Source of the DNA: a virus
Taxonomy: Duplodnaviria > Heunggongvirae > Uroviricota > Caudoviricetes
Length of the DNA stretch: 38,034 bases
Strand: one strand, 5' to 3'
IMG/VR virus record: IMGVR_UViG_2534681658_000022
The translations under genes were made by a program, and so were the position numbers. Numbering within the stretch: the first letter of the stretch is position 1; every line of letters starts with the position of its first letter. Shown piece after piece: positions 1-38,034 of this stretch. The notes below the pieces were generated by a model that was not told the DNA's origin, searched no databases, and saw only the letters and a list, made by a program, of their open reading frames with translations.

Positions 1-483
1 ATGACGAAGAAAAAAGCACATAAACCTGGTTCAGCGACCATCGCGCTTAACAAGCGCGCCCGTCACGAATACTTTATCGAAGAAGAGTTCGAAGCGGGAC
101 TTGCCCTGCAAGGCTGGGAGGTTAAATCCCTGCGCGCAGGAAAAGCCAATATCAGCGACAGCTACGTCCTTCTGCGTGACGGAGAGGCATTTCTGTTTGG
201 CGCTAACATCACGCCAATGGCCGTGGCCTCCACGCATGTGGTGTGCGATCCTACCCGTACCCGCAAGTTACTTCTCAACCAGCGCGAACTGGACTCATTG
301 TACGGTCGCGTCAATCGAGAAGGCTATACCGTAGTGGCGCTCTCCCTGTACTGGAAAAATGCCTGGTGCAAAGTGAAAATCGGCGTCGCCAAAGGTAAAA
401 AACAGCACGATAAACGTTCAGATATCAAAGAACGCGAATGGCAGGTGGATAAAGCACGTATCATGAAAAACGCCCACCGTTAA
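1..483 (+). CDS. smpB: SsrA-binding protein SmpB
   Basis: 160-aa ORF that I recognise as enterobacterial SmpB; sits immediately upstream of the tmRNA gene, the conserved host arrangement. Confidence 0.95.
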
Positions 484-697
484 ACCTGCACTCCAATTAT
501 TGACCAGTTCCTCACCGCGCCTCCCTCTCCGGCGGCGCGAATGAACATCTTATTGGCTATCACATCCGACACAAATGTTGCCATCCCATTGCTTAATCGA
601 ATAAAAATCAGGCTACATGGGTGCTAAATCTTTAACGATAACGCCATTGAGGCTGGTCATGGCGCTCATAAATCTGGTATACTTACCTTTACACATT

Positions 698-1060
698 GGG
701 GCTGATTCTGGATTCGACGGGATTTGCGAAACCCAAGGTGCATGCCGAGGGGCGGTTGGCCTCGTAAAAAGCCGCAAAAAATAGTCGCAAACGACGAAAA
801 CTACGCTTTAGCAGCTTAATAACCTGCTTAGAGCCCTCTCTCCCTAGCCTCCGCTCTTAGGACGGGGATCAAGAGAGGTCAAACCCAAAAGAGATCGCGT
901 GGAAGCCCTGCCTGGGGTTGAAGCGTTAAAACTTAATCAGGCTAGTTTGTTAGTGGCGTGTCCGTCCGCAGCTGGCAAGCGAATGTAAAGACTGACTAAG
1001 CATGTAGTACCGAGGATGTAGGAATTTCGGACGCGGGTTCAACTCCCGCCAGCTCCACCA
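698..1060 (+). ncRNA. ssrA: tmRNA (SsrA, transfer-messenger RNA)
   Basis: 363 nt starting GGGGCTGATTCTGGATTCGACGGG and ending GGTTCAACTCCCGCCAGCTCCACCA (tRNA-like 3' end with CCA). Internal tag frame at 781-813, GCAAACGACGAAAACTACGCTTTAGCAGCTTAA, encodes ANDENYALAA-stop. Confidence 0.93.
1016..1060. repeat. attL core: 45-bp direct repeat (3' end of ssrA), identical copy at 36244-36288
   Basis: ATGTAGGAATTTCGGACGCGGGTTCAACTCCCGCCAGCTCCACCA occurs twice in the window and brackets the phage gene set. Confidence 0.85.
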
Positions 1061-1183: not shown

Positions 1184-1666
1184 ATGGAAGAACTTCACTT
1201 TGTTTACATCAATGCAAATGGTCGTATCGGTGTTCACTCTATACAGGGCATCAGTTATAGCGAAAATCATATACAGGGCATTTGTAAGAACACCGATCGA
1301 ATAAAAACCTTCCGAAAAGACCGCATTCTTAAACAGTACGATTCACCAGAACAAGCCATTCAGGAATGCGCGTCATTCCTCCCCGAAAACTACTCACATC
1401 TCACTAAGCAGTCTGGTCCGAAAAAAAATACATTCGATGTGTGTTTCACCGGATTTAAGAAAGCAGATAAAGAAAGATTGGTTGATAAGGCGAATGAACA
1501 AGGATTAACGGTAAGAACCTCTGTAACCCAAAGCCTTCAGATGCTCTGTTGCGGTTACAATGCAGGCCCATCAAAAGTATCGGCAGCCAGGATGAAAGGC
1601 ACAATCATCATAGATGAGCCTGGCTTTATACATTTTCTTGAAACGGGTGAGATCCCAGATGAATAA
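1184..1666 (+). CDS. Hypothetical cargo protein with WYL-like N-terminal segment and BRCT-like C-terminal domain
   Basis: 160-aa ORF with AGAGG 7 nt upstream of the ATG. N-terminus has a QGICKNTDRIKTFRKDRI segment resembling the conserved WYL-domain core. C-terminus (FDVCFTGF...KERLVDKANEQGLTV...AGPSKVSAARMKGTIIIDE) resembles the BRCT domain of NAD-dependent DNA ligase. Domain calls are by eye. Confidence 0.6.
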   Translation: MEELHFVYINANGRIGVHSIQGISYSENHIQGICKNTDRIKTFRKDRILKQYDSPEQAIQECASFLPENYSHLTKQSGPKKNTFDVCFTGFKKADKERLVDKANEQGLTVRTSVTQSLQMLCCGYNAGPSKVSAARMKGTIIIDEPGFIHFLETGEIPDE

Positions 1667-13626: not shown

Positions 13627-14064
13627 ATGAAATCTTGGAAAAACCGAGGATTTAAAAAAAGGGTTCTTGAATATGTTTACTGTTTCTCCGCTGCTCCATT
13701 TTTAGCCATGTTCTACACGTTGTCAGAAAACCAGCTGACAATGTTTATAATTTTCTTCACTGTGAGTTTTTATCTCACTCTGATGGCATCCGTTTTTTTA
13801 ACAAAACGAGGATTTAACAAAGTATTCAAAGAATTCTTTAATTTATTATGGAACTATGAAACGGCCTTCGTTTTTTGCTATGGCCTTTATACTTATCTTT
13901 ATAGAATTGATGGGCAGAAAACTTTATCAAACCTCCTTACCATTATGTTTTCAGCTCACCCATGGACACTTATTTTCGGCATCGGACTCTTGGTTTTCAC
14001 AGTAATTTTCAGGTTTGCTCTGAGTGTTGCTGACTTGCTAGTTGAAGTTAAGTCAGATATATAA
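13627..14064 (+). CDS. Hypothetical multi-pass membrane protein (moron, opposite strand within the late tail operon)
   Basis: AAGGAGG 6 nt upstream of the ATG at 13627. Markedly AT-rich. About four hydrophobic helices (e.g. LTMFIIFFTVSFYLTLMASVFL, WTLIFGIGLLVFTVIFRFALSV). Lies between S and V on the opposite strand. Confidence 0.6.
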   Translation: MKSWKNRGFKKRVLEYVYCFSAAPFLAMFYTLSENQLTMFIIFFTVSFYLTLMASVFLTKRGFNKVFKEFFNLLWNYETAFVFCYGLYTYLYRIDGQKTLSNLLTIMFSAHPWTLIFGIGLLVFTVIFRFALSVADLLVEVKSDI

Positions 14065-20041: not shown

Positions 20042-21808
20042 ATGAACACCACACTGACACCCGCAGATCTCGATCCCCGTCGGCAGGCCATGCTGCTGTA
20101 CTTTCAGGGATACCGCGTAGCCCGCATTGCTGAAATGCTGGGCGAGAAAGTTGCAACCGTTCACAGCTGGAAAAAACGCGACAAGTGGGGTGACTATGGG
20201 CCGCTGGATCAGATGCAGCTCACCACCGCCGCACGCTACTGCCAGCTCATTATGAAGGAGCACAAAGAAGGGAAAGATTTCAAAGAGATTGACCTGCTGG
20301 CGCGCCAGTCGGAACGCCACGCGCGGATCGGCAAGTTTAACAATGGCGGTAACGAAGCCGACTTAAACCCTAACGTCGCCAACCGCAACAAAGGCCCACG
20401 CCGTCAGCCGGAAAAGAACGTTTTCACCGATGAACAAATTGAGAAGCTGGAAGAAATTTTCCATTCCTCCATGTTCAACTACCAGCGCCACTGGTGGGAA
20501 GCCGGAAAAACCAACCGCATCCGCAACCTGCTGAAGTCTCGCCAGATCGGCGCGACCTTCTATTTTGCCCGTGAAGCCCTGATTGACGCCCTGCTGACCG
20601 GACGTAACCAGATTTTCCTTTCCGCCAGCAAGGCACAGGCCCACGTCTTTAAGCAGTACATCATCGACTTCGCCAAAGAAGTGGAGGTGGAGCTGAAAGG
20701 CGATCCGATGGTGCTTCCTAACGGGGCCACGCTTTACTTCCTCGGCACCAATGCCCGCACGGCCCAGAGTTATCACGGCAACCTGTATCTGGATGAATAT
20801 TTCTGGATCCCAAAATTCCAGGAGTTGCGCAAAGTGGCTTCCGGTATGGCTATTCACAAGAAATGGCGGCAGACCTATTTTTCCACACCATCCAGTCTGA
20901 CCCACAGTGCTTATCCGTTCTGGTCCGGTGCGCTGTTCAACCGTGGGCGCAACAAAGCTGACAAGGTGGACATCGACCTGTCCCACAGCAATCTGGCCCC
21001 CGGCCTGCTGTGCGCAGACGGGCAATACCGCCAGATAGTCACCGTGGAAGATGCGGTGCGCGGCGGCTGTAACCTGTTCGACCTTGACCAGTTGCGCATG
21101 GAGTACAGCCCGGACGAATACCAGAACCTGCTGATGTGCGAGTTTGTTGACGATCTCGCGTCCGTGTTCCCGCTCAGCGAGCTGCAGGCGTGCATGGTGG
21201 ACAGCTGGGAAGTCTGGACCGACTTTCATGCACTGGCTCTGCGCCCGTTTGGCTGGCGCGAAGTGTGGATCGGTTATGACCCGGCAAAAGGTACGCAGAA
21301 CGGCGACAGCGCCGGGTGCGTGGTGGTGGCACCGCCAGCCGTGCCTGGTGGTAAGTTCCGCATTCTTGAGCGTCACCAGTGGCGCGGGATGGACTTCCGC
21401 GCCCAGGCTGACGCCATCAAAAAACTGACCGAGCAGTACAACGTGACCTACATCGGCATCGACTCGACCGGCGTCGGCCACGGGGTTTACGAGAACGTGA
21501 AAGCGTTTTTTCCAGCCGTCCGGGAGTTTGTCTACAACCCCAACGTTAAAAACGCTCTGGTACTCAAGGCCTACGACATTATCAGCCACCGCCGTCTGGA
21601 GTTTGACGCCGGGCACACCGACATTGCGCAGTCATTCATGGCAATCCGTCGCGCCACCACCGCCAGTGGCAACCGCCCAACCTATGAAGCCAGCCGCAGC
21701 GAAGAAGCCAGCCACGCCGATCTGGCCTGGGCAACAATGCACGCACTGTTTAACGAACCGCTGCAGGGCGAGTCCGCCAATACCAGCAATATTGTGGAGA
21801 TTTTTTGA
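20042..21808 (+). CDS. P: Terminase ATPase (large) subunit P
   Basis: 588-aa ORF divergent from O, upstream of the portal gene. Confidence 0.92.
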   Translation: MNTTLTPADLDPRRQAMLLYFQGYRVARIAEMLGEKVATVHSWKKRDKWGDYGPLDQMQLTTAARYCQLIMKEHKEGKDFKEIDLLARQSERHARIGKFNNGGNEADLNPNVANRNKGPRRQPEKNVFTDEQIEKLEEIFHSSMFNYQRHWWEAGKTNRIRNLLKSRQIGATFYFAREALIDALLTGRNQIFLSASKAQAHVFKQYIIDFAKEVEVELKGDPMVLPNGATLYFLGTNARTAQSYHGNLYLDEYFWIPKFQELRKVASGMAIHKKWRQTYFSTPSSLTHSAYPFWSGALFNRGRNKADKVDIDLSHSNLAPGLLCADGQYRQIVTVEDAVRGGCNLFDLDQLRMEYSPDEYQNLLMCEFVDDLASVFPLSELQACMVDSWEVWTDFHALALRPFGWREVWIGYDPAKGTQNGDSAGCVVVAPPAVPGGKFRILERHQWRGMDFRAQADAIKKLTEQYNVTYIGIDSTGVGHGVYENVKAFFPAVREFVYNPNVKNALVLKAYDIISHRRLEFDAGHTDIAQSFMAIRRATTASGNRPTYEASRSEEASHADLAWATMHALFNEPLQGESANTSNIVEIF

Positions 21809-22836
21809 TGGGAAAGAGTAAGAAGAACCGCGCTGCGTCGACGAAACAGATTCAGCATAAAAGCCAGACTTCAGCCGAAGCATTCAGCTTCGGTGATCCC
21901 GTTCCTGTTCTGGACCGCCGCGAATTGCTGGACTATGTGGAATGCGTACAGATGGATCGCTGGTATGAGCCGCCCGTCAGCTTTGACGGACTGGCACGAA
22001 CCTTCCGCGCCGCCGTGCATCACAGCTCACCGATTGCGGTGAAATGCAACATTCTGACCAGCACCTACATCCCTCACCCGCTGCTCAGCCAGCAGGCTTT
22101 TTCACGTTTTGTGCAGGACTATCTGGTATTCGGTAACGCCTACCTGGAGAAACGCACGAATCGATTCGGTGAAGTTATCGCCCTTGAGCCTGCGCTGGCA
22201 AAATACACCCGACGCGGATTAGATCTGGATACCTACTGGTTTGTGCAATACGGCATGACTACGCAGCCGTATCAGTTCACGAAAGGCAGCATCTTTCATC
22301 TGATGGAACCGGATATCAACCAGGAGATCTACGGCCTGCCCGGTTATCTTTCTGCCATTCCGTCAGCCCTGCTCAACGAGTCCGCCACGCTGTTCCGCCG
22401 CAAGTATTACATTAACGGCAGTCATGCAGGCTTCATCATGTACATGACCGATGCAGCGCAGAACCAGGAGGATGTGAACAACCTCCGCAATGCGATGAAA
22501 AGCGCCAAAGGTCCAGGCAACTTCCGCAACCTGTTTATGTACTCACCTAACGGCAAAAAGGATGGTCTTCAGATTATCCCGTTGTCAGAAGTCGCGGCGA
22601 AGGATGAATTTCTGAATATCAAAAATGTCAGCCGCGACGACATGATGGCTGCGCACCGCGTGCCGCCGCAAATGATGGGGATTATGCCTAATAATGTTGG
22701 AGGGTTTGGGGATGTAGAGAAAGCTAGTAAGGTTTTTGTTATAAATGAACTGATACCTTTACAAAAACGGTTACAAGAACTAAATTATTGGATAGATGAA
22801 GATATAATCCAATTTGAAGATTATAGTTTAACTTAA
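21805..22836 (+). CDS. Q: Portal protein Q
   Basis: 343-aa ORF overlapping the P stop by 4 nt; the P2 gpQ position. Confidence 0.9.
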   Translation: MMGKSKKNRAASTKQIQHKSQTSAEAFSFGDPVPVLDRRELLDYVECVQMDRWYEPPVSFDGLARTFRAAVHHSSPIAVKCNILTSTYIPHPLLSQQAFSRFVQDYLVFGNAYLEKRTNRFGEVIALEPALAKYTRRGLDLDTYWFVQYGMTTQPYQFTKGSIFHLMEPDINQEIYGLPGYLSAIPSALLNESATLFRRKYYINGSHAGFIMYMTDAAQNQEDVNNLRNAMKSAKGPGNFRNLFMYSPNGKKDGLQIIPLSEVAAKDEFLNIKNVSRDDMMAAHRVPPQMMGIMPNNVGGFGDVEKASKVFVINELIPLQKRLQELNYWIDEDIIQFEDYSLT

Positions 22837-22873
22837 ATAATGATAACACAGGGCCTAGAATCGGCCCTAAAAA

Positions 22874-23545
22874 TTAAAAACCAAGCTCATCTCTGATTCT
22901 TGGGAATTTTTTCATTACTCGAATATCAGTTAATAAATGCCAACGCCAAAAAACAGAAAATGGATATGATACATTACACATTGGCTTTAGCTTATTCTTG
23001 GCCTCTTGGATTTCTTGTTCTGTGCTTCGATCACTGACAAGTTTCATTCTCCAACCAGTAAAGTAAAACAATTCATCTTGTAACTTCTCTGAGAGATTTG
23101 CTCTTGTAATGCCCCTCAACCCCGTACTCGAAGAGTTAAAACACTTATCTAATAATTTGACTGTATTTAAAACCTTTCTACTTGGTCTTTTTCTTCTTGG
23201 GTATACTTGAACACCACTCGTTATAGCGTTCCCTGCGAGATGAACAATCTCACTGAAAACATCAACATCACTCTTTGTGCAATCAAGTAAGTTTTCAAAA
23301 GAATCACTTTTAATACTATTGCATCGACTGCAAGCTAAAAATAGATTGTTCCAATCATATTTGAGCTCATCAAGATCACGATGTGGAATAAAATGTTCTA
23401 TCTCTGGATCCATAAGATTACCTTGCTCACAGAGATAACATTTTCCATGAAATATTTCGTCTAAAGCATTTACAACTGTTTTATGGTTATATACTTTTCT
23501 CGACAAGCATTGAGGTGCAGGAATATTTCTAGTAACATTAAACAT
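22874..23545 (-). CDS. HNH endonuclease, Septu PtuB-like
   Basis: 223 aa with an N-terminal HNH motif (HGKCYLCE...EIEHFIPH...NLFLACSRCNSIK). AT-rich. Overlaps the upstream ATPase gene by 8 nt. Confidence 0.75.
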   Translation of the reverse strand: MFNVTRNIPAPQCLSRKVYNHKTVVNALDEIFHGKCYLCEQGNLMDPEIEHFIPHRDLDELKYDWNNLFLACSRCNSIKSDSFENLLDCTKSDVDVFSEIVHLAGNAITSGVQVYPRRKRPSRKVLNTVKLLDKCFNSSSTGLRGITRANLSEKLQDELFYFTGWRMKLVSDRSTEQEIQEAKNKLKPMCNVSYPFSVFWRWHLLTDIRVMKKFPRIRDELGF

Positions 23546-24776
23546 CGTCTTCCCTTTCGCTATAATCTAAATATTTACTCTTAGCGATCATAAAAGCTGC
23601 TTTTGAACTTTTATCAAGAAAATCAATACTCTTCTGTAACGTTTTCATTATAGAATGAAATCTATCGTCGAAGACATTATTTTCTACTAAAGTCATTAAT
23701 TCTTTAACTAATGCATTTAGCTTATCCGAAGATACATCCTCACCCAACAATCCCTTTATAATTGCTGTGTAAGAATACAATGATAAATCACCCATCTGAT
23801 CCAATGTTGAGAGATTAAATATAATCGCATCAGATACTGATTGGATTACGAAAGGTGAATGCGTAGAAACAATAAATTGTATTTGCGGAAAAGATGATGA
23901 AAAAAAACTAAATACTTTCTTTTGCAATGTTACATGAAGATGAGCATCAATTTCATCAATAAGTACTATCCCTGTCATATCATGTTTTCTGATTTTATCA
24001 AGCTCTGCTTTTATCAATAAATCAGTATAAATAGAAAGAATTGATGAAAAACCAGATGACAACTTATCAAGTCCAAATGGTTCCTTATTATTTTGTAAAA
24101 GATAGATTTTCAACTTGTCGAGATCAAAATCCATTCTAATACTTTCATCTTCAAAAAGTTCTTTTAAGTCATCATTAATACTCTCAATAATATCAAAGGC
24201 TCTTTTATAGTCATCATCCTTGCCCACTCCCTTACTGACTAAAGCATAATTCCACAATGTAACTATGTATCTTTCAAAATACATACCAGCATCAATCTTA
24301 GAATTATTTCTCTGTGCGTTCCCATACTCAGTTAACAACAAATCGAGGCTGCTAATCTTACCATCATTTTTTATTTTCGCTTCTCGAATAGCAGGAAATA
24401 ATCTTATAATTGATTTTTTCTTTTTTGCAGCAACCCTGAAATCAACCACATCATTAAAAGTAATATCAAAGCTCTCAAATTCTTTTAATTTTTCTTTCAG
24501 TCTCTCAATTTCTTCGTTTAAATAGCTATAATTACCATCCCCTCTATTTGAATACTTTAAGTTTTCTTGACTGGAATTCAATTCCTTTTGTAGCTGCTCC
24601 TTAGTATAAGGATCATGTGAATTAATCGATTTTTCTATAAACTCATAAATATTCTCGATCAACCTAGTTTTACCAGAGCCATTATCTCCTGATATTATTA
24701 GATTCTTACCATCAAGATTTAATGTGTAAGGCTCATCGTTCCTTTTAAAGAAGATAGTTTCGATGAAATGTCGCAT
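23538..24776 (-). CDS. ABC/AAA-type ATPase, Septu PtuA-like
   Basis: Walker A GDNGSGKT, Walker B/D-loop VLIDEIDAHLH, and STHSP motif. Start set at the ATG preceded by GGGAGG; the tracked ORF starts at 24791. Confidence 0.75.
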   Translation of the reverse strand: MRHFIETIFFKRNDEPYTLNLDGKNLIISGDNGSGKTRLIENIYEFIEKSINSHDPYTKEQLQKELNSSQENLKYSNRGDGNYSYLNEEIERLKEKLKEFESFDITFNDVVDFRVAAKKKKSIIRLFPAIREAKIKNDGKISSLDLLLTEYGNAQRNNSKIDAGMYFERYIVTLWNYALVSKGVGKDDDYKRAFDIIESINDDLKELFEDESIRMDFDLDKLKIYLLQNNKEPFGLDKLSSGFSSILSIYTDLLIKAELDKIRKHDMTGIVLIDEIDAHLHVTLQKKVFSFFSSSFPQIQFIVSTHSPFVIQSVSDAIIFNLSTLDQMGDLSLYSYTAIIKGLLGEDVSSDKLNALVKELMTLVENNVFDDRFHSIMKTLQKSIDFLDKSSKAAFMIAKSKYLDYSEREDDV

Positions 24777-24866
24777 TATTCCTCCCGTCATACTTAATAG
24801 CTTTTAGATAATATGACATTACATGTTAGATTTCATCCGTTTTGTGAACATATCCACTGCCGCGCG

Positions 24867-24885
24867 CTCGTATCCCCGCCACGCC
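24867..24885. other. Putative cos site (cohesive end)
   Basis: Minus-strand GGCGTGGCGGGGATACGAG; the first 13 nt match the 186/P2-type 19-nt cohesive end as I recall it (GGCGTGGCGGGGAAAGCAT). Sits in a GC-rich patch inside the AT-rich hotspot. Confidence 0.45.
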
Positions 24886-25228
24886 TGCCCGCTTTATGTA
24901 GTGGTTTTCATGCGCCTGCATGACATAAGAAAAAGCCCGCCACTCCTGGCAGGCCTCAGCAAAAACGATCCTCTAACGATCATGCGATCTCATTCGTCAT
25001 AGTCATGCACAGCCAAGGGAAGCGTAAATCCGTATCTGAATGACCGCTGAAAAGCTAATCATACGGGTTTACAAAGATGAAAGTCCGCTGTGAGCGAAAA
25101 GCGGATATTTCCATTGTTTTATCTTGATCTAGTAAAAACAATACCCTCTTTACAAACAAAAATAATGAGTTACTATTTGCAGCACCTTTTAACCCAAAGG
25201 TTTATAATTAAAAAGGAATGGCATACCG

Positions 25229-25882
25229 ATGAATAAATACAAACTTTTCGCACAGCTATCAAGATATTCATTTGAAGCGCAGATTGATGATTTCGAAAAA
25301 TATATCCTAGGAGCAGGCGGCCAAAACAGAGTTGACTTATCGGAATTAAAAAAAGCATATGAAGATGAAAAAAAGAATGCTCCTGACGATTATATTAATT
25401 ACTTAGAAGACTATTATTCAGAGCAATATGATTTCTTAGTTAACATACAACCAAATATTTTTAATAAATCTGCTTTGGTATCTTTATACTCATGCTTAGA
25501 GCACAACCTAAACGACTATTGCAATATATGTCAAAGGATTGTAAACACCAATATATCAGTAACCGATTTTAATGGTGATGGCATCCACAAAGCAAAAAGA
25601 TATTTAACAAAATTAATGGATATAAACTTTGGCCTGTCACAAGAGTGGCGATTCATGACAGAGTTTAACAAAGTAAGGAATTGCATAGTTCATGCTAATG
25701 GAGACATTAAAAAAATGAGCACAGCTGTAGCCTTAAAAGATATCATTGATAAAACACCTACTCTTTCATTAAACAATGAAAATAATATAATAATCTCCTT
25801 AAATTATTTAAAAGATACTATCACAAAAATTAGAAAACTCTTTCAATGGTTATATACACATCTGGATCAATCATCGAAATGA
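25229..25882 (+). CDS. Hypothetical protein with HEPN-type RNxxxH motif (candidate abortive-infection effector)
   Basis: 217-aa AT-rich ORF with TATAAT at 25203-25208 upstream. Motif RNCIVH at residues about 151-156. No recognisable phage function. Confidence 0.55.
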   Translation: MNKYKLFAQLSRYSFEAQIDDFEKYILGAGGQNRVDLSELKKAYEDEKKNAPDDYINYLEDYYSEQYDFLVNIQPNIFNKSALVSLYSCLEHNLNDYCNICQRIVNTNISVTDFNGDGIHKAKRYLTKLMDINFGLSQEWRFMTEFNKVRNCIVHANGDIKKMSTAVALKDIIDKTPTLSLNNENNIIISLNYLKDTITKIRKLFQWLYTHLDQSSK

Positions 25883-25982
25883 ATACGATAACATCTCAGT
25901 TTGTTATTGGTCTATTTTTGAAAACAGCTATCGATGATATTAGTCTGTTCTTCGTCAATTAATATGCAATCCGTTCATGACA

Positions 25983-26004
25983 CAGGGCTGCTGTTACAGC
26001 CCTG
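25983..26004. terminator. Hairpin between convergent hotspot genes (possible bidirectional terminator)
   Basis: CAGGGCTG-CTGTTA-CAGCCCTG perfect 8-bp stem; no strong T-tract. Confidence 0.3.
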
Positions 26005-26134
26005 ACAACCTTAGACTTCAATCGATTCAGAGATCTCTAACGCATCATCACCCGTTGAACTCACAGCGATAAGTAGACGCTGGCGGCAATAACACAGAAG
26101 TGTAGCGGGAATTTGAACCACATAATTTGGTTTG

Positions 26135-27001
26135 TTAGATGGCTTTGCTTCGATATTCAATTTCTAAAATCGCCTTTGTCATTGCCGCAATAGTTATAGC
26201 TTCTACCATAGTCAATTCAGGCTTGTTCAAGCTTCCGTGTCCAGCAGTAGGTAATTTGTTACGTAAATCATAAATATCTTTAACAGCATCAATAAGATTC
26301 TTAGGTAATTTTGACATTTTTTCGAACTGTTTAAAAAAACCACCCAATGACTCATTTGCCACATTCGGGTTTTGAGTGATTTCCTTAGCCATAGTTTCTA
26401 AAACATTAGAGGCTGCGTGCAGTGCACCTGCCGGATCATTATTATCCAAGCAATTATTCATTCTATCTATTTGCTGAACGATATTTGGGTGCAATCTCTT
26501 TAAGTAATCACTAGCCAATTCTTCATTGAAATTTTTGACACTTTCAAAAACATCGCAATCTAAATAAAATTTAGGATTGACTGACATCCATGTATATTTC
26601 CAATCATTTTCTAAATTATCTTTTTCCGCAATACGCCTGCCAGTGTCCTGATCTATCTCATCAACATATTTACACATATAATCGGCGTAGTAGTGTAAAT
26701 ATCTAAATGATATTTCTGGGCAAAAATTACTAACTGATGCAAGGCCGCCATATTCTTTTGTAGTAACTGTAGGGACTTCTTCATCACATAAAGATGAGAA
26801 AGTGGTTCTTTCCCAAAATTCGCCCAACTCTTTTTCTTTCCTAGTTGCCATACCAGCTATCATATTGATGCTTGAGAGCAAAACTACACTCTGATAGTAT
26901 CGAGGACATCTGTATGAACTAGCATATGGGCATATTGATGATGCTTTACGATTAATACGCTCTTTTTCCCACCAATTTTTATCAGGAATAATTCTTTGCA
27001 T
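26135..27001 (-). CDS. Hypothetical protein, Cys-rich N-terminus (uncharacterised hotspot cargo)
   Basis: 288-aa AT-rich ORF, convergent with the 217-aa gene. N-terminal cysteines (CPY...C.RYY...CPE...CKY); C-terminal region with LRNKLPTAGHG. No recognised family; the true start may be a downstream Met. Confidence 0.55.
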   Translation of the reverse strand: MQRIIPDKNWWEKERINRKASSICPYASSYRCPRYYQSVVLLSSINMIAGMATRKEKELGEFWERTTFSSLCDEEVPTVTTKEYGGLASVSNFCPEISFRYLHYYADYMCKYVDEIDQDTGRRIAEKDNLENDWKYTWMSVNPKFYLDCDVFESVKNFNEELASDYLKRLHPNIVQQIDRMNNCLDNNDPAGALHAASNVLETMAKEITQNPNVANESLGGFFKQFEKMSKLPKNLIDAVKDIYDLRNKLPTAGHGSLNKPELTMVEAITIAAMTKAILEIEYRSKAI

Positions 27002-27489
27002 AATTTAGCTACTATCTCACGAGTGAATGAATGTTTAGCCTTCTGCACAGTTTATCAGTTCCGGCATGCCTACTGCTACCCCACTGATTCAACTTCAAGT
27101 TATGAGTTAAAGCGATTCGGTTTCGCTAGATGACACACTAGTGTTAATTTATGGATAAAAATTTATCACTTAAAATTAACTAATGCCTGTTGCGACCAAA
27201 AGTGTGCTGGAATATTATTTTCGTCTGGCCTATTATCAAGCTAATTATCCAAATTAGAGTTACTCTCATTCATCAGCAACAAATAAATACACCTGTTCAC
27301 TTTCTCAAAGTGTTCCTGTTTTATTTTTAAAGCAAACAACGCCGCCTATTCGTCCGAATGTACAACAAACATCAGGTTCTGACACAAAGTGGACGATCAC
27401 TTATCAAAATGACCGCCCACCTTACACCTCATTTCACTCGTTGCCCAAACTCCCCCCAACAGGATAAATCCTCTTGGGGGCAACGTTTC

Positions 27490-27723
27490 TTAATGCAGCC
27501 AGCTGTCGTCTTCCCACACCTTCTGCATAATTTTCAGCACTTGTTTTCTTTCTTCGTCCAGTTGCAGTCCGGTCAGTTCCACACCGTTAGAGCTACCTTT
27601 GCGGATACGAATTACCGTTTTGGGATACAGGGGGCGCAGATTGCGGTAAAGCTCGGATTCAAGGGCATCCAGGGTAGACTGGCTAATCTTCTGCTCTTTA
27701 TCGATCATTATTTCAATGCGCAT
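27490..27723 (-). CDS. DinI-family protein (Tum C-terminal-like)
   Basis: 77-aa product MRIEIMIDKEQKISQSTLDALESELYRNL...VWEDDSWLH matches the DinI fold signature. GAGGTGA RBS. Hairpin terminator just downstream, about 27455-27485. Confidence 0.75.
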   Translation of the reverse strand: MRIEIMIDKEQKISQSTLDALESELYRNLRPLYPKTVIRIRKGSSNGVELTGLQLDEERKQVLKIMQKVWEDDSWLH

Positions 27724-27733
27724 AAAAGTCACC

Positions 27734-27922
27734 TCAGCTGATGACATCCATTGAGCGGTTGTATTCGTGGGTTCTGATTTTTGCCATGAGTTCATCAGTC
27801 AATTCAGAAACCCACTGCAGAGCCAGCCCCTTCTCTTCATCACTACACTCACTAGCCGCTACAAGCTTAAGAAAAAAATCAATGCGCTGGAGCTTCAAAG
27901 ACTCCAAAAAATAGTCCTGCAT
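27734..27922 (-). CDS. Small SOS-regulated protein (possible Tum N-terminal-like antirepressor segment)
   Basis: 62-aa ORF starting MQDYFLESL with GGAGGAAAG RBS, directly downstream of a LexA box; its end overlaps the dinI-like start in another frame. Confidence 0.45.
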   Translation of the reverse strand: MQDYFLESLKLQRIDFFLKLVAASECSDEEKGLALQWVSELTDELMAKIRTHEYNRSMDVIS

Positions 27923-27965
27923 CTTTCCTCCTATAACACCACGAGCAATACTGTATACATGACCA

Positions 27966-27981
27966 CTGTTTATATTTACAG
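27966..27981. promoter_or_regulatory. LexA (SOS) box
   Basis: CTGTTTATATTTACAG fits the CTGT-N8-ACAG consensus and overlaps a TATA-rich -10-like region for the minus-strand small ORF/dinI-like operon. Confidence 0.6.
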
Positions 27982-28075
27982 TATATAATAATCTTACTGA
28001 TGTAAAACGTTTTTTTACGTTCATCAGCCTGATATGCCTGGTATTATTAAGAGCACGAATTGTTAATCCGCGTAA

Positions 28076-30490
28076 TTAATACAGGTTCCGCCACTTATCA
28101 TCTTCCTGTAAACGCTGATTCCGATAGAAGATACGCAGGCCAGCCCCTGACGGAATACTGCCTCCGCGAAGGAGTAAATCGACCTCTTTCTCGCTGCCAT
28201 CAAATCCTCTGGACTTCAGTTCATAGACGAGCTGCTGTCGCTGATGGTCTGTAATTCGCTGTTTGTAGTCTTTGCGCCGTTTCGGTTTCACCTGGCGTAA
28301 CCTTGCAGCCAGTTCCCGACGCTCTTTTTTGCTCATACTGTGCAGATAATCGTGCAACTCCTTGTCATCCTGGCGGGTAATGTCAGTTCTGGTGTCCCCA
28401 TCAGCTGATTTATCTTTCTCCTGTTGGTTCAAATTTTCAGCAAGGGGACAGTTATTGCCACGAGTCCAAGGGGCGCAAGCGCCCTTGTCGGCTGCCGCCT
28501 CCTGAACGTCAACGGCCTTACGAACCATTTTCCACTTCACTGCATGAGTGCAGATCTTGCCCTCTGCAATGGGTGACCAGATGCCATAAATACGAATACC
28601 GTGATCGCCATAGGCGGTCGGCTCTTCGTTGATTTCATAAGCAGTTCTGATGAGGTGATATTTGCGGGGAACCAGTACGCCGCCCTGCTTCATGATGTAG
28701 GTGGCAAAACAACCAGCATCAGCAGCAGCCAGGATTGCATCAAGGCGCGGGTTATCCAGTACCGGCGCACCTGCTTTTTTGTCCCCCTGCTGCCTTGCCG
28801 CCTGACCAGCCAGCAATCGCAGTTCACGGTAAGCCTGACGCCCCGGAATGCCAAAGAAGCGGAATTGCTGAACACGATGCAGAGACGCCCAAGCATTAAC
28901 GTATTCAGCGTTATCACGCAGGGATTTACCCGTTTCCTTGCTGATCTCGCCAGCCAGACCACGCCCGTCAATGTTCTTACTGATGTATTTCGCGATGTAG
29001 CTTGTTGGCGTACCTTTGCGCGGGTTTATCAGCTCGGACTTAAAGCGTGGTCCCGTGTTATTACCCAGCTCCTCGCGGTCTTCACGAATGGCAAACTTAC
29101 GCAACAAAGCAGTAATGGCGCGGCGATCTTTTTTGCGCATAAAACACAACAGGTGCCAGTGAACTGTACCGTCGTGATGCGGCTCAGCCACCCGCACGCC
29201 ATACCAGCGCAACCCGGCTTTGTGCATCGCCTTACGAAATGCAGCAAACATACCGACCAGATAATCACTGCTTTGTCTTACCGTCGCATTTGTCCAGGTT
29301 GGGTTGGGCCTGCCGTTATTTAGCGTGGAATGGAAACGTGACGGACAGGTGATGGTGTAGAAAACGGCGCAGTCACCGCGCATTTCCGCGATAAGCTCCA
29401 GACCTTTAACACAGGCCATCATCTCATTGCGGCGATGCGCAGGGTTGCTGCTGCTGGCGTTTACCACATCCTCCATGTCCAGCGTGTCGCCGTCTTCGTT
29501 CACCAGTTCATGAGAACGGAAAAACTCCAGCGACTTACGGCGCTGCTCACGTTTATGCATCACGGCTTCATAGCTGACATAAGGAGATGCTTTTTTGCTA
29601 ACCAGGCAGACAGCGCGCAACTGCTCTTCCCGCCATTCGCAACGCATCTTCCATAATTTCCGATACCACCAGTCGGCGCACAACATACGCGCCAGCGAAC
29701 CCGGAATGAGTTCATAGGGCACGGGTTTACGGCGGTTTCTTTTCCGACGGAGTTGCTCAAACGCAGGCGGGATAACATCCAGACGCAGGGTTTCCGCTGC
29801 CACCTTTTCCCACGTCTTGCGGATTTCTTCTGGCTTAACGTCATCGGTGGCATACAAATCACCACAAGCGGCATCAAGGCACATGCTCATATGCGCAGCA
29901 ACAAGGGTAGACAGACGCTTCACCTGATCCTGACTCATTTCAGGCAGGATCAGCAGGCCGTCCAGCCCTTCATGGCTTGCCATAAAGCGAAAAGAAGTGG
30001 ATAGCTGACAGTCGCGTACATGCTCCAGTCGTTCCAGACATGGCTTAATCGTCTCACGCAAATAGCGGGAATAAGCCTTTGGCCTGCCCAGGCTGCTGAA
30101 GTATTCAATACGTTGCATCAGCGGCTTGCTGATATGGGAAGGCTGGGCATTGACGTCCGCCAGAATGACCATATCTGGATTAAAACGCTGCTGCTCATGC
30201 GCCAGCTTTGCCCGGCTAATGAGTTTATCCTGCTCCATTTCGCGTTGGACAGGATCACGGGATTCATTAAAGAAATAACGCTCCCAGACCTGATCACTCA
30301 GTGCCTCGCGGCGCAGTTGTTCCAGCTCGTTATCGACAGCGTACAGAGTGATCAGGTTTGAAAGCGCAGAAACCGGCGCAACTTCCGCCGGGTCCAGATA
30401 AGGGTTAATGGCCTTTTTCGGGCTGTTCCATGAGAATGCTGCGGCGACCTCGTTAAAGCCGCTGCAGTTGTTCATATCAGCATGGCTCAT
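28076..30490 (-). CDS. A: Replication initiation endonuclease, P2 gpA family
   Basis: 804-aa ORF at the end of the early operon, the position and size class of the P2/186 A protein. Confidence 0.88.
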
Positions 30491-35499: not shown

Positions 35500-36168
35500 A
35501 TGAATAGCGAACTAGAGTTACTTATAAAAATATTATTCCCTTCCCTATCTGCCATTATATCCTTATTAGGGCTTAAAACAGGGTGGACTTATAAAAAAGA
35601 CAAACTATTCACATCACGTAAAAACATTAGCGAATTTTCATATCAGATGTATAAAAGCAGTGAAGATCCGACCTTCAAAAAACTGGCGGAAGATTACGGC
35701 ATTGCTGCATTAACCAAAGATAACACATTGACAAAAAAACAAAGATTAATATTACTCAACACAACAAACCCCGTTAGCGATATAGATAATTATTCCAAAT
35801 GTCAAAGTCTAATTTCCATTACCACCCATAAAGAAATATTCGCATGGAATAAAAAAAGATATAAATACAGCATATATAGAAAATTAATAAAAATCATAAC
35901 AACTCTAATTTACTTCATGAGCAGTCTCATCGTAGCACTTCCTTTCAGTTATTCTGTTGTAGTAAGTGCTAAGATGATGGAGAAGATAAACCATCTAACT
36001 ACTTGGCAATACTTTGGTTTAAGCAGCTATTTTGTGGTATCGGGAGTAGCAATATGCTTTATCTGCCTAGATAAGCTCTCCAAGATTAAGATCGCCGAGA
36101 GATTAATCGTTTCGAATAGGCGTTTAGGCGACAAATGCAGTGGCGGCACTTTGGCGGCAGAAAGTTAA
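35500..36168 (+). CDS. Hypothetical membrane protein between int and attR (candidate lysogenic-conversion cargo)
   Basis: 222-aa very AT-rich ORF starting 11 nt after the int stop on the same strand. N-terminal TM helix, Lys-rich cytoplasmic region, then two C-terminal TM helices. Confidence 0.55.
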   Translation: MNSELELLIKILFPSLSAIISLLGLKTGWTYKKDKLFTSRKNISEFSYQMYKSSEDPTFKKLAEDYGIAALTKDNTLTKKQRLILLNTTNPVSDIDNYSKCQSLISITTHKEIFAWNKKRYKYSIYRKLIKIITTLIYFMSSLIVALPFSYSVVVSAKMMEKINHLTTWQYFGLSSYFVVSGVAICFICLDKLSKIKIAERLIVSNRRLGDKCSGGTLAAES

Positions 36169-36356: not shown

Positions 36357-36463
36357 GGGCTTTTTTACGTCTATTGTCGTCCAGTGAGAATTGCTGAGAA
36401 CTACGAGTTATGGCACCCTGAATGGGACCCACTAAGAAGGGTCCAAAAACCGAGGGTCCCAAA

Positions 36464-37249
36464 ATGGCAAAAATCGCTAAGAAGCTCACTGACACTGAAA
36501 TCAAAAGCACCAAGCCAGCCGATAAAGAAATCAACTTGTTTGACGGTGATGGTCTGATTCTACGAATCGCTCCTTTGGCGAAAGGAGGCAAGAAAAATTG
36601 GTATTTCAGGTATGCAGTACCAGTGAGCAAGAAAAGAACCAAAATGAGCCTTGGGACATATCCTCACCTTACCCTTGCAAGAGCCAGAGCCTTACGTGAT
36701 GAATATCTCTCCTTTCTGGCAAATGGTGTTGATCCCCAAATCCATAACAACGATAAGGCGAAGGCATTAAAGAGTGCTACTGAGCACACTCTCCAAGCCG
36801 TAGCGCGGAAATGGTTAGATGAGAAGGTAAAGACATCAGGTATCTCACAAGACCATGCAGCAGACATCTGGCGCAGCTTAGAGAGAAATGTCTTTCCCGG
36901 TCTGGGTAATGTCCCTATCAATGAGATCCGACCTAAGCTCTTAAAACAACACCTTGATCCTATTGAGCAACGAGGCGTATTGGAAACTCTACGCCGTATC
37001 ATTTCACGTCTGAATGAAATCTTCCGGTGGGCAGCTACTGAAGAACTTATTGAGTTCAACCCGGCTGACAACCTTGGTCAAAGATTCAGTAAACCAAAAA
37101 AGCAAAATATGCCTGCCCTTCCCCCAAGCGAATTGCCAAGGTTTATGGAATCTTTGACGAATGCGTCAATCCGGTTGGAAACACGTATGCTAATTGAATG
37201 GCAATTGTTGACATGGGTTCGTCCGGGTGAAGCCGTTCGCGCAAGGTGA
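36464..37249 (+). pseudogene. intA: P4-type (IntA-like) integrase, 3'-truncated by IS insertion
   Basis: N-terminus (TDTEIKSTKPADKEINLFDGDGLILRIAP...) and internal segment (ESLTNASIRLETRMLIEWQLLTWVRPGEAVRAR) track the CP4-57 IntA family. The frame ends in a TGA created at the IS629 left end. Confidence 0.8.
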
Positions 37250-37300
37250 ACCGCCCCGGGAATCCTGGAGACTAAACTTCCTGAGAAAGAGGTAAACAGG

Positions 37301-37627
37301 ATGACTAAAAATACTCGTTTTTCCCCCGAAGTCCGTCAACGGGCAGTCCGTATGGTTCTGGAAAGTCAGAGCGAATATGACTCACAATGGGCGACAATTT
37401 GTTCCATTGCTCCAAAGATTGGCTGTACGCCGGAGACTCTGCGTGTCTGGGTTCGCCAGCATGAGCGGGATACCGGGGGCGGTGATGGAGGGCTCACCAC
37501 CGCTGAACGTCAGCGTCTGAAAGAGCTGGAACGTGAAAATCGTGAACTGCGCCGCAGTAACGATATCCTTCGCCAGGCTTCCGCTTATTTTGCGAAGGCG
37601 GAGTTCGACCGCCTCTGGAAAAAATGA
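37301..37627 (+). CDS. IS3-family transposase OrfA (IS629-type)
   Basis: 108-aa product [41 protein letters not shown]... recognised as IS629/IS1203 OrfA. Confidence 0.9.
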
Positions 37628-38034
37628 TGCCACTGCTGGATAAGCTGCGTGAGCAGTACGGGGTCGGACCGCTATGCAGCGAACTGCATATTGCCCCGTC
37701 AACGTATTACCACTGTCAGCAACAGCGACATCATCCGGATAAACGCAGTGCCCGTGCGCAGCGCGATGACTGGCTGAAGAAAGAGATACAGCGCGTATAC
37801 GATGAAAATCACAAGGTATACGGTGTGCGTAAAGTCTGGCGTCAGTTGTTACGGGAAGGTATCAGAGTGGCCAGATGCACTGTGGCACGTCTCATGGCGG
37901 TTATGGGACTTGCCGGTGTTCTCCGGGGTAAAAAGGTCCGTACGACCATCAGCCGGAAAGCCGTTGCCGCAGGCGACCGCGTAAACCGTCAGTTCGTGGC
38001 AGAACGACCTGACCAGCTGTGGGTGGCTGATTTT
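37624..38034 (+). CDS. IS3-family transposase OrfB (IS629-type), 5' partial
   Basis: Open frame from ATG 37624 to the window end ([30 protein letters not shown]...), overlapping the orfA stop. Confidence 0.85.

What the first reader, a model, noticed from the sequence alone, without database searches (positions are those of the whole stretch)
22837..28075. AT-rich accessory island spanning the putative cos site
Between Q (GC-rich backbone) and gene A the composition drops sharply. The island holds the Septu-like pair, a GC-rich patch with a 186-like cohesive-end motif (24867-24885), the 217-aa and 288-aa orphans, and the Tum/DinI module. The Septu-like genes lie between cos and the 3' end of Q, on the opposite side of cos from the tin/old position used in P2. 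Cargo is therefore carried on both sides of the packaging site.
Basis: partly seen in the sequence, partly recalled or inferred. Interest (0 to 1): 0.55.

Follow-up and report, generated by a model that had tools for sequence, protein, structure and literature searches.

The report
Known P2-phage defence hotspot flanking cos
This AT-rich stretch is the already described cargo hotspot next to the DNA-packaging (cos) site of a P2/186-like E. coli prophage; it carries a Septu anti-phage system on one side of cos and two predicted HEPN-nuclease genes on the other, which is typical of this phage lineage and not new.

Summary
GC falls from about 0.55 to 0.25-0.40 between the portal gene Q and the replication gene A. 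The motif at 24867-24885 is a genuine homologue of the P2/186 cohesive end. A full-length Septu pair (PtuA/PtuB) lies between cos and Q, on the opposite side of cos from P2's tin/old.

It is not one island. It is two cargo slots, left 22837-24860 and right about 25011-27479, that swap independently. They are separated by a 150-bp conserved cos module (24861-25010). The DinI-like gene, the small upstream ORF and their LexA box (27490-27981) are conserved backbone, not cargo.

In relatives the Q-cos slot is usually filled: 64 of 74 viral contigs and 51 of 64 genome loci have at least 700 bp there, mostly defence-type genes.

The two "orphans" are predicted HEPN proteins.

None of this is new. 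The gpA-gpQ hotspot was described by Rousset et al. 2022, whose Table S5A lists this exact gene arrangement. The cos-to-Q position was proposed as a pick-up site in 1996-1999. The modest added value is the measured two-slot structure and the sharply one-sided conservation around cos. Interest is low.

The parts
21805..22836 (+). Portal gene Q (P2 gpQ / 186 W homologue), the left anchor of the hotspot. Its last ~50 codons are AT-rich, and DNA homology with relatives fades gradually over 22682-22843.
   Evidence: Pfam Phage_portal; PGAP 'phage portal protein'; homology end points
22837..24860 (.). Left cargo slot (Q stop to 7 bp before the cohesive end). Here it holds the Septu operon. None of the 160 related loci share this DNA.
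   Evidence: identical DNA in only 5 of 5426 complete E. coli genomes
22849..22869 (-). Terminator-like hairpin between the convergent Q and ptuB genes.
   Evidence: consensus scan only
22874..23545 (-). PtuB, the HNH nuclease of Septu. It has CxxC...CxxC and H/N catalytic residues.
   Evidence: PADLOC PDLC00331 E=1.8e-82, full length; Pfam HNH; sequence
23538..24791 (-). PtuA, the ABC/SMC-type ATPase of Septu (PGAP start at 24776). Walker A GDNGSGKT, signature-like LSSGF, Walker B VLIDEID and H-loop STHSP are all present.
   Evidence: PADLOC PDLC00268 E=7.3e-122, full length; Pfam AAA_21/AAA_15/SMC_N; sequence
24808..24836 (-). Promoter-like site for the Septu operon, lying between cos and the ptuA start.
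   Evidence: 9/12 consensus match; promoter-like sites are no more frequent in the region than in shuffles, so this is weak
24861..25010 (-). Conserved cos module: 6-7 bp (GCGCGC) on the Q side, the 19-nt cohesive end, and about 125 bp on the A side.
   Evidence: Column information of 1.5-2 bits from -7 to +143 and about 0.1 bit outside, over 129 distinct sequences; break points at 24861 in 110 alignments and at 25008-25014 in about 100; matches in 78 phage records
24867..24885 (-). Predicted 19-nt cohesive end, GGCGTGGCGGGGATACGAG (read toward Q).
   Evidence: Alignment with the annotated cos of P2 (GGCGAGGCGGGGAAAGCAC) and 186 (GGCGTGGCGGGGAAAGCAT) including flanks; the same 19-mer in 103 of 134 loci
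24932..24957 (-). Strong terminator-like hairpin (11 pairs plus a T run) inside the cos module. It reads from the A side and is positioned like 186 t95b.
   Evidence: 186 annotation
25011..27479 (.). Right cargo slot (end of the cos module to 10 bp past the DinI stop). Only 1 of the 160 loci (L144) shares it, as do 9 of 5426 E. coli genomes.
25229..25882 (+). 217-aa predicted HEPN protein with invariant R150-N151-x3-H155.
25970..26049 (.). 80-bp segment shared (about 93%) with the 3' end and downstream flank of a 200-aa integrase gene in lambdoid prophages of about 640 E. coli genomes. It flanks the 288-aa cassette.
26135..27001 (-). 288-aa two-domain protein: an N-terminal domain with four invariant Cys (C24, C32, C94, C149) and a C-terminal HEPN/Abi_C-like domain (R247...H255).
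27490..27723 (-). DinI-like gene (backbone), homologous to the C-terminal 75 aa of 186 Tum.
   Evidence: Pfam DinI E=1.1e-21; 41% identity to Tum residues 71-145; present in 67 of 80 viral loci
27734..27922 (-). Conserved 62-aa ORF (phrog_698), the first gene of the SOS operon (backbone).
27966..27981 (.). LexA box CTGTTTATATTTACAG, the only perfect match in the window, about 44 bp upstream of the 62-aa ORF, placed like 186 p95.
   Evidence: 186 annotation
28076..30490 (-). Replication gene A, the right anchor of the hotspot.
   Evidence: Pfam Phage_GPA E=1.4e-127

Best explanation
The region is the cos-proximal cargo hotspot of a P2/186-like (Peduoviridae) prophage integrated at ssrA in an ETEC-type E. 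coli.

It consists of two separate cargo slots flanking a 150-bp conserved cos module. The left slot (between the Q stop and cos) holds a type I Septu system, a PtuA ATPase and a PtuB HNH nuclease, transcribed from just inside cos toward Q. The right slot (between cos and the DinI-like gene) holds two separately transcribed, predicted HEPN-nuclease genes of the single-gene abortive-infection type.

The LexA-controlled small ORF and DinI-like gene next to A belong to the 186-type backbone.

Cargo is exchanged by recombination in the conserved flanks: Q, the cos module, and the DinI-A region. Because the cos module acts as a shared middle arm, each slot is replaced independently. The cargo probably protects the lysogen, and so the prophage, against other phages.

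Shown here: gene identities, cos homology, slot boundaries, independent assortment. Inferred: actual cos cleavage, expression, defence activity, recombination mechanism.
For: Backbone and context: P, Q, A, DinI and ssrA.

cos: alignment to the annotated cos ends of P2 and 186, identity to the Cartapus cos, and one 150-bp patch conserved in 78 phage records and 74 of 80 viral loci.

Septu: full-length PADLOC PtuA and PtuB matches with intact motifs.

Two slots: 0 of 160 loci share the left cargo and 1 of 160 the right, while the patch between them is conserved. Break points are sharp at 24861, about 25010 and 27480.

Independent assortment: E. coli O25b:H4 has the same right cargo with a P-loop NTPase in the left slot. 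A genome in Rousset Table S5A has the same Septu with other partner genes. 15 of 16 recurrent left alleles occur with at least 2 right-slot states, and 13 of 14 recurrent right alleles with at least 2 left-slot states.

Slot occupancy: at least 700 bp between Q and cos in 64 of 74 viral and 51 of 64 genome loci; both slots filled in 38 of 67 viral loci.

Left-slot cargo in relatives is rich in defence domains.

Literature: the gpA-gpQ hotspot, this exact arrangement listed, and the cosL-to-Q position proposed as a pick-up site.
Against: No experiment here shows that terminase cuts at 24867-24885, or that this prophage is inducible.

Promoter-like sites are no more frequent in the region than in shuffled sequence, so the expression signals are only suggestive.

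The 288-aa protein's R...H spacing (R-x7-H) is wider than the canonical HEPN Rx4-6H.

Defence activity of this Septu allele and of the two HEPN genes is untested.

The loci surveyed were chosen by similarity to this Q protein, so the occupancy figures describe this lineage only, not all P2-like phages.
Confidence: 0.88

Rival explanations
1. The whole 22.8-28.1 kb stretch is one foreign island acquired in a single event that happens to enclose cos.
For: Uniformly low GC on both sides of cos. In the five ETEC genomes that carry this Septu, the left and right cargo co-occur.
Against: The 150-bp patch between the two halves is backbone sequence shared with nearly all relatives. The same right cargo occurs with a different left cargo in O25b:H4 and L144. 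The same Septu occurs with other partner genes. Recurrent alleles of each slot pair with several alleles of the other. The DinI-like gene and 62-aa ORF are conserved.
Confidence: 0.04
2. The functional cos lies elsewhere (for example right next to Q as in P2 and 186), or the prophage is defective and 24867-24885 is a relic. In that case the Septu genes are not really between cos and Q.
For: Cleavage was not tested. The last six bases of the 19-mer differ from P2 and 186. The 12-nt core by itself is not significant.
Against: Only 37 bp separate the Q stop from ptuB, and there is no second cos-core match in the window. The same 19-mer with the same flanks is present in 103 of 134 loci under obvious purifying selection. 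It is the annotated cos at the start of the Cartapus phage genome record, which also has a gene between cos and portal. The prophage has a complete P2-type gene set.
Confidence: 0.05
3. The right-slot genes are not defence genes. They could be toxin-type addiction or regulatory genes, or counter-defence or virulence cargo. The 288-aa gene, which occupies the position of 186 orf97, might act in prophage induction as part of the SOS operon.
For: No terminator-like site was found between the DinI-like gene and the 288-aa gene on the - strand, so SOS read-through is possible. PADLOC gives only weak hits for both proteins. P2 hotspots also carry non-defence cargo such as partition systems and toxins.
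Against: Both have HEPN folds and motifs typical of abortive-infection RNases, including similarity to the prophage Abi protein HepS. The 288-aa cassette also moves on its own into a lambdoid prophage cargo site. It has no similarity to 186 orf97.
Confidence: 0.25

Closest known systems
P2-like phage defence hotspot between gpA and gpQ (Rousset et al. 2022, PMC9122126; Moura de Sousa group, NAR 2026, PMC13586616)
   Same: Same locus, same anchors (portal Q and replication protein A), next to cos, extremely variable, and rich in defence systems. The very arrangement in this window (WP_001404037 ... WP_001404036 + WP_024169310) is listed in Table S5A.
   Different: Those papers treat the A-Q interval as one locus. 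In the text I could search, they do not separate cargo left of cos from cargo right of cos.
P2 tin/old region and 186 tum/orf97 region (between A and cosR)
   Same: This corresponds to the right slot here. As in 186, there is a LexA-controlled operon with a DinI/Tum-type gene followed by a non-essential gene and a terminator before cos.
   Different: The cargo genes are unrelated (HEPN proteins instead of Tin, Old or Orf97). The DinI-like gene lacks the N-terminal 70 residues of Tum.
Insertion position between cosL and the Q/W terminator: retrons Ec67 and Ec86 in 186-related prophages (Dodd & Egan 1996), ctx in phiCTX (Nakayama 1999), ORF1-4 of Ralstonia phiRSY1 (PMC5694545), DUF4145 gene of phage Cartapus
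   Same: Foreign genes sit between the left cohesive end and the 3' end of the portal gene, where P2 and 186 have only about 170 bp with a terminator.
   Different: Here the cargo is a Septu system. I could not read the 1996 and 1999 papers themselves; they are cited through PMC5694545.
Septu type I (PtuA/PtuB; Doron et al. 2018) and the PtuAB effectors of retron Ec78
   Same: A two-gene operon of an ABC-type ATPase and an HNH nuclease, with full-length matches to PADLOC Septu models.
   Different: It does not reach NCBIfam's retron-Ec78 PtuA/PtuB cut-offs (86 vs 500 bits and 24 vs 150 bits). No reverse transcriptase or ncRNA is adjacent, so it is stand-alone Septu and not a retron effector.
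Single-gene HEPN abortive-infection proteins of prophages (e.g. HepS of Gifsy-1, AbiV, RnlA/LsoA)
   Same: HEPN fold in both right-slot proteins, prophage cargo location, and a sensor-like extra domain in the 288-aa protein.
   Different: No detectable sequence similarity to these proteins. The Cys4 N-terminal domain of the 288-aa protein has no named family. Activity is untested.

Membership tests
P2-like cos-proximal (gpA-gpQ) defence hotspot | Lies between the portal gene Q and the replication gene A of a P2-like phage | tested here: met
   Q at 21805-22836 and A at 28076-30490
P2-like cos-proximal (gpA-gpQ) defence hotspot | Gene content differs between otherwise near-identical phages | tested here: met
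   Relatives with 94-96% identical Q share none of the left cargo, and 1 of 160 shares the right cargo. There are 99 left and 36 right alleles.
P2-like cos-proximal (gpA-gpQ) defence hotspot | Carries known or candidate anti-phage systems | tested here: met
   Septu here. Defence domains in relatives' left slots. This arrangement is listed in Table S5A of PMC9122126.
P2/186-type cos site | 19-nt cohesive-end sequence homologous to P2/186, with the conserved flanking core | tested here: met
   GGCGTGGCGGGGATACGAG: the first 13 nt are identical to 186, and the flanks align (GCAT.AAAACC...TAAAG.GGGC | cos | .GCGCGC). It is conserved from -7 to +143 in 129 distinct sequences.
P2/186-type cos site | Located between the 3' end of Q and the A-side accessory genes, reading toward Q | tested here: met
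   The orientation and order are the same as in P2 and 186.
P2/186-type cos site | Cut by terminase to give 19-nt 5' overhangs | not testable with these tools
   Needs sequencing of virion DNA ends.
Septu type I (PtuA/PtuB) | Adjacent co-oriented genes for an ABC/SMC-type ATPase and an HNH nuclease, matching Septu profiles over their full length | tested here: met
   PDLC00268 at 7.3e-122 (residues 6-413 of 417) and PDLC00331 at 1.8e-82 (residues 1-219 of 223). The genes overlap by 8 nt.
Septu type I (PtuA/PtuB) | Intact catalytic motifs (Walker A/B; HNH with zinc-binding Cys pairs) | tested here: met
   GDNGSGKT, VLIDEID and STHSP in PtuA; CYLC...EIEHFIPH...CSRCN in PtuB
Septu type I (PtuA/PtuB) | Protects against phage infection | not testable with these tools
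   Needs a plaque assay.
Retron Ec78-type PtuAB effector | Reaches the NCBIfam equivalog cut-offs and is linked to a reverse transcriptase and msr/msd | tested here: not met
   86 bits against a cut-off of 500, and 24 against 150. There is no RT gene in the slot and no Rfam hit in the island.
HEPN superfamily (217-aa protein) | Conserved Rx4-6H motif | tested here: met
   R150-N-C-I-V-H155 is invariant in 16 sequences, including a Bacillus homologue with 25% identity.
HEPN superfamily (217-aa protein) | HEPN four-helix fold | tested here: inconclusive
HEPN superfamily (288-aa protein, C-terminal domain) | HEPN four-helix fold | tested here: met
HEPN superfamily (288-aa protein, C-terminal domain) | Conserved Rx4-6H motif | tested here: inconclusive
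   R247 and H255 are nearly invariant, but the spacing is R-x7-H, and the loop 253-260 is modelled with low confidence.
186 Tum antirepressor / SOS operon | LexA box in the promoter upstream of the operon | tested here: met
   Perfect CTGT-N8-ACAG at 27966-27981, the only one in the window.
186 Tum antirepressor / SOS operon | Full-length Tum (146 aa) including the N-terminal half | tested here: not met
   Only Tum residues 71-145 align (41% identity), and the gene is annotated as a 77-aa DinI-like protein. It is DinI-like, not a demonstrated Tum.

The most novel reading that the evidence does not exclude
The published 'single' P2 hotspot is really two independently recombining cargo slots separated by a minimal cos of about 150 bp. 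The conservation of that cos is sharply one-sided: 7 bp toward Q and about 125 bp toward A. In the 186/Fels-2-like lineage the cos-to-Q slot, not the classical tin/old slot, is the main defence slot, and its genes almost always read from cos toward Q. If nobody has stated this explicitly, it gives a natural-variation map of what the P2-type terminase needs, and a rule for placing cargo in P2-based vectors. In addition, the two right-slot HEPN proteins could be new single-gene abortive-infection systems.
Probability: 0.3. Interest if true: 0.3.

Novelty: already known. Interest (0 to 1): 0.15.

Why it matters
It matters little as a discovery. The locus, its role as a defence hotspot, and even this exact gene arrangement are already published.

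Its use is practical. The sharp conservation limits (24861-25010) mark how little sequence the packaging site appears to need on the Q side, which helps the design of P2/P4 cosmids and the annotation of prophages. Splitting the hotspot at cos would sharpen comparative studies of how defence cargo is swapped. The two HEPN genes, especially the 288-aa Cys4 + HEPN protein that also moves into lambdoid prophages, are reasonable candidates for phage-challenge testing.

Tried and rejected

2. Pfam, PADLOC, PHROGs and NCBIfam on the two orphans gave only weak or no hits.

3. I first suspected that the 80-bp match to 'integrase' genes was a scar of a P4-type integrase, which would have been evidence for P4-P2 exchange. 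The context shows instead a short integrase in lambdoid prophages, so I rejected that idea.

4. The ORF at 24823-25002(+) overlapping cos has no family hit. Its conservation is explained by cos itself, so I rejected it as a gene.

5. The ORF at 27358-27741(+) is the antisense shadow of the DinI-like gene: its tblastn hits coincide with DinI. Rejected as a gene.

6. The 288-aa protein is not a homologue of 186 orf97, although it has the same position.

7. No Rfam family falls inside the island; the only hits are tmRNA and an IS3-type frameshift element elsewhere in the window.

8. The 12-nt cos core alone is not significant (44 of 100 shuffles give a match at up to 1 mismatch), so the cos call rests on the extended homology.

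9. None of the 160 related loci carries this Septu in the left slot. Only distant Septu homologues appear elsewhere in three loci.

Full report
**What the window is.** The window is a P2/186-like (Peduoviridae) prophage inserted next to smpB-ssrA. It is 99.9% identical over positions 1-37248 to a prophage of E. coli ETEC-2265. The terminase gene P (20042-21808) and portal gene Q (21805-22836) read rightward. The replication gene A (28076-30490) reads leftward. The finding covers the interval between Q and A.

**Check of the observation.** The composition drop is real. GC is 0.30-0.39 in 500-nt windows from 22501 to 27500, against 0.53-0.62 in P/Q and about 0.53 in A. At 100-nt resolution the AT-rich tract starts at about 22700, inside the last codons of Q, and ends at about 28050. 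Two GC-richer patches interrupt it, at 24800-25100 and 27350-27900.

**The cos site.** The reverse complement of 24867-24885 is GGCGTGGCGGGGATACGAG. I rebuilt the circular junctions of P2 and 186 from the two ends of their reference records, where the cohesive ends are annotated. The window aligns with both, not only in the 19-mer but in the flanks...GCAT.AAAACC....TAAAG.GGGC | 19-mer | .GCGCGC... It is identical to the region annotated as cos at the start of the phage Cartapus genome. This is the only cos-core match in the window. The short core is not significant by itself; the evidence is the extended homology. A 150-bp patch (24861-25010) is found in 78 phage records and in 74 of 80 viral contigs fetched through the Q protein. 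Across 129 distinct sequences anchored on the core, column information is 1.5-2 bits from 7 bp on the Q side of the 19-mer to about 125 bp on the A side, and about 0.1 bit beyond those limits. BLAST break points pile up at 24861 (110 alignments) and at 25008-25014 (about 100). So the cos assignment is well supported, and conservation around it is strikingly one-sided. Actual cleavage was not tested.

**The cargo genes.** The 417-aa and 223-aa proteins on the minus strand match PADLOC Septu models over their full length (PtuA 7.3e-122, PtuB 1.8e-82). They keep the Walker A/B, signature and H-loop motifs and the HNH/zinc-finger motifs. They do not reach NCBIfam's cut-offs for the retron-Ec78 PtuAB effectors, and no reverse transcriptase is nearby. 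This is therefore stand-alone Septu.

**What is cargo and what is backbone.** I fetched 160 loci anchored on the Q protein: 80 viral contigs with 94-96% identical Q, and 80 genomes of different species. Mapped back onto the window, they show that 22850-24850 is shared with none of them and 24861-25010 with almost all. The stretch 25100-27350 is shared with one (L144), and everything from about 27480 onward with 66-71 of the 80 viral contigs.

The DinI-like gene (27490-27723), the 62-aa ORF upstream of it (27734-27922) and the only perfect LexA box in the window (27966-27981) are therefore lineage backbone. They are laid out like the SOS operon of phage 186. The DinI-like gene matches only residues 71-145 of 186 Tum, so I call it DinI-like, not Tum. 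The variable DNA thus ends at about 27480, not 28075.

**One island or two slots.** It is two slots. The same right-slot cargo (99% identity) occurs in E. coli O25b:H4 with a different left-slot gene, a P-loop NTPase, and in L144 with another left cargo. The same Septu occurs with other partner genes in a genome listed by Rousset et al.. I clustered the slot sequences of all loci:
- There are 99 left alleles in 127 occupied loci and 36 right alleles in 63.
- There are 83 combinations in the 91 loci where both boundaries could be located.
- 15 of 16 recurrent left alleles occur with at least two right-slot states.
- 13 of 14 recurrent right alleles occur with at least two left-slot states.

The simplest mechanism is homologous recombination in the conserved flanks, with the cos module serving as the shared middle arm. 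This is inferred from the sharp, recurrent break points. On the Q side the break is diffuse, spread over the last ~150 nt of Q.

**How usual is cargo between cos and Q?** In P2 and 186 only about 170 bp, holding a terminator, separates cos from the portal stop. In this lineage the opposite holds. At least 700 bp lies between the Q stop and cos in 64 of 74 viral contigs and 51 of 64 genome loci; only 2 and 10 respectively have the short P2/186 spacing. Among the 67 viral contigs where DinI could also be located, both slots are filled in 38, only the left in 21, only the right in 1, and neither in 0.

Left-slot genes are on the strand reading from cos toward Q in 103 of 112 protein-cluster representatives. 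They are rich in defence domains: TIR, AriA/PtuA/OLD-type ATPases, PIN, SEFIR, GmrSD, AIPR, reverse transcriptase, KAP NTPase, DprA, SieB, AbiC and Schlafen. These figures describe relatives of this Q protein, not all P2-like phages.

**Comparison with what is known.** Rousset et al. [quoted passage not shown] Their Table S5A lists the very arrangement found here, protein accession by protein accession. A 2026 NAR paper analyses the rapid swapping of these loci and exchange with other mobile elements. The specific position between cosL and the portal gene was already proposed as a place where P2-like phages pick up foreign genes; PMC5694545 cites Dodd & Egan 1996 (retrons Ec67 and Ec86 replace the DNA between cos and a terminator of a 186-related prophage) and Nakayama 1999 (phiCTX) for this.

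In the text I could search, the recent hotspot papers do not separate the two sides of cos. The measured two-slot structure and the one-sided cos conservation may therefore be a small addition. I could not read the 1996 and 1999 papers to check how much they already say.

**Verdict.** Two points needed correction: the DinI/LexA module is backbone, and the "island" is two independent slots. The feature is an instance of a known and already catalogued hotspot, so novelty is "already known" and interest is low (0.15).

The most novel reading still open has two parts. One is an explicit two-slot model with a minimal, one-sided cos. The other is that the two HEPN proteins are new single-gene defence systems. 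I give this about 0.3 probability, and it would be of modest interest if true.

Noticed in passing
window 25899-27387 (core 25970-26049); loci L169, L170: The 288-aa cassette with its flanks (96% identity) also sits in a lambdoid prophage of E. coli ARS-C301, where the ORF is split in two. An 80-bp piece of its downstream flank matches the 3' end of a 200-aa integrase gene in lambdoid prophages of about 640 E. coli genomes. This suggests cassette exchange between P2-like and lambdoid prophages through short shared flanks.
   Followed up: partly
window 1-1060: The prophage is integrated next to smpB and ssrA (tmRNA, Rfam 295.8 bits). From memory, Fels-2 and SopEPhi use the same attachment region.
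   Followed up: no
window 13627-14064 (+): An AT-rich (GC 0.36) 145-aa ORF lies between baseplate gene V and morphogenesis gene S, on the opposite strand to its neighbours. From memory this is the position of orf30 in P2. It has no Pfam or PADLOC hit and may be another small cargo slot.
   Followed up: partly
window 35500-36168 (+) and 1184-1666 (+): Two more AT-rich ORFs lie at the prophage edges. A 222-aa ORF sits just after the integrase (GC about 0.32) with no family hit. A 160-aa ORF sits between ssrA and ogr with only weak BRCT (E=0.0012) and PADLOC PDC-S48 (E=1.7e-7, C-terminal part) matches. The NAR 2026 paper mentions minor P2 hotspots near the integrase and att site.
   Followed up: partly
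window 36422-38034: A second integrase-like gene (Arm-DNA-bind_3 + Phage_int_M) ends abruptly at 37249, where identity to ETEC-2265 stops. An ALIL pseudoknot (IS3-family frameshift element) lies at 37582-37698. An IS element has probably inserted into the neighbouring island's integrase in this strain.
   Followed up: no
loci L008-L167, left slots: PADLOC Old models match three left-slot protein clusters in relatives (and Pfam OLD-like TOPRIM two), so Old-type genes can sit on the Q side of cos, opposite to where P2 carries old. Left-slot genes are on the cos-to-Q strand in 103 of 112 cluster representatives.
   Followed up: partly
L011, L027, L034, positions ~700-2560: Distant Septu homologues (32-38% identity to PtuA and PtuB) lie about 8-9 kb upstream of Q in three genome loci, outside the cos-proximal hotspot. 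Their context was not examined.
   Followed up: no
window 27358-27741 (+) and 24823-25002 (+): Two ORFs in the mechanical ORF list are probably not genes. One is the antisense shadow of the DinI-like gene. The other overlaps the conserved cos module and is annotated as a hypothetical protein in some phage records.
   Followed up: yes
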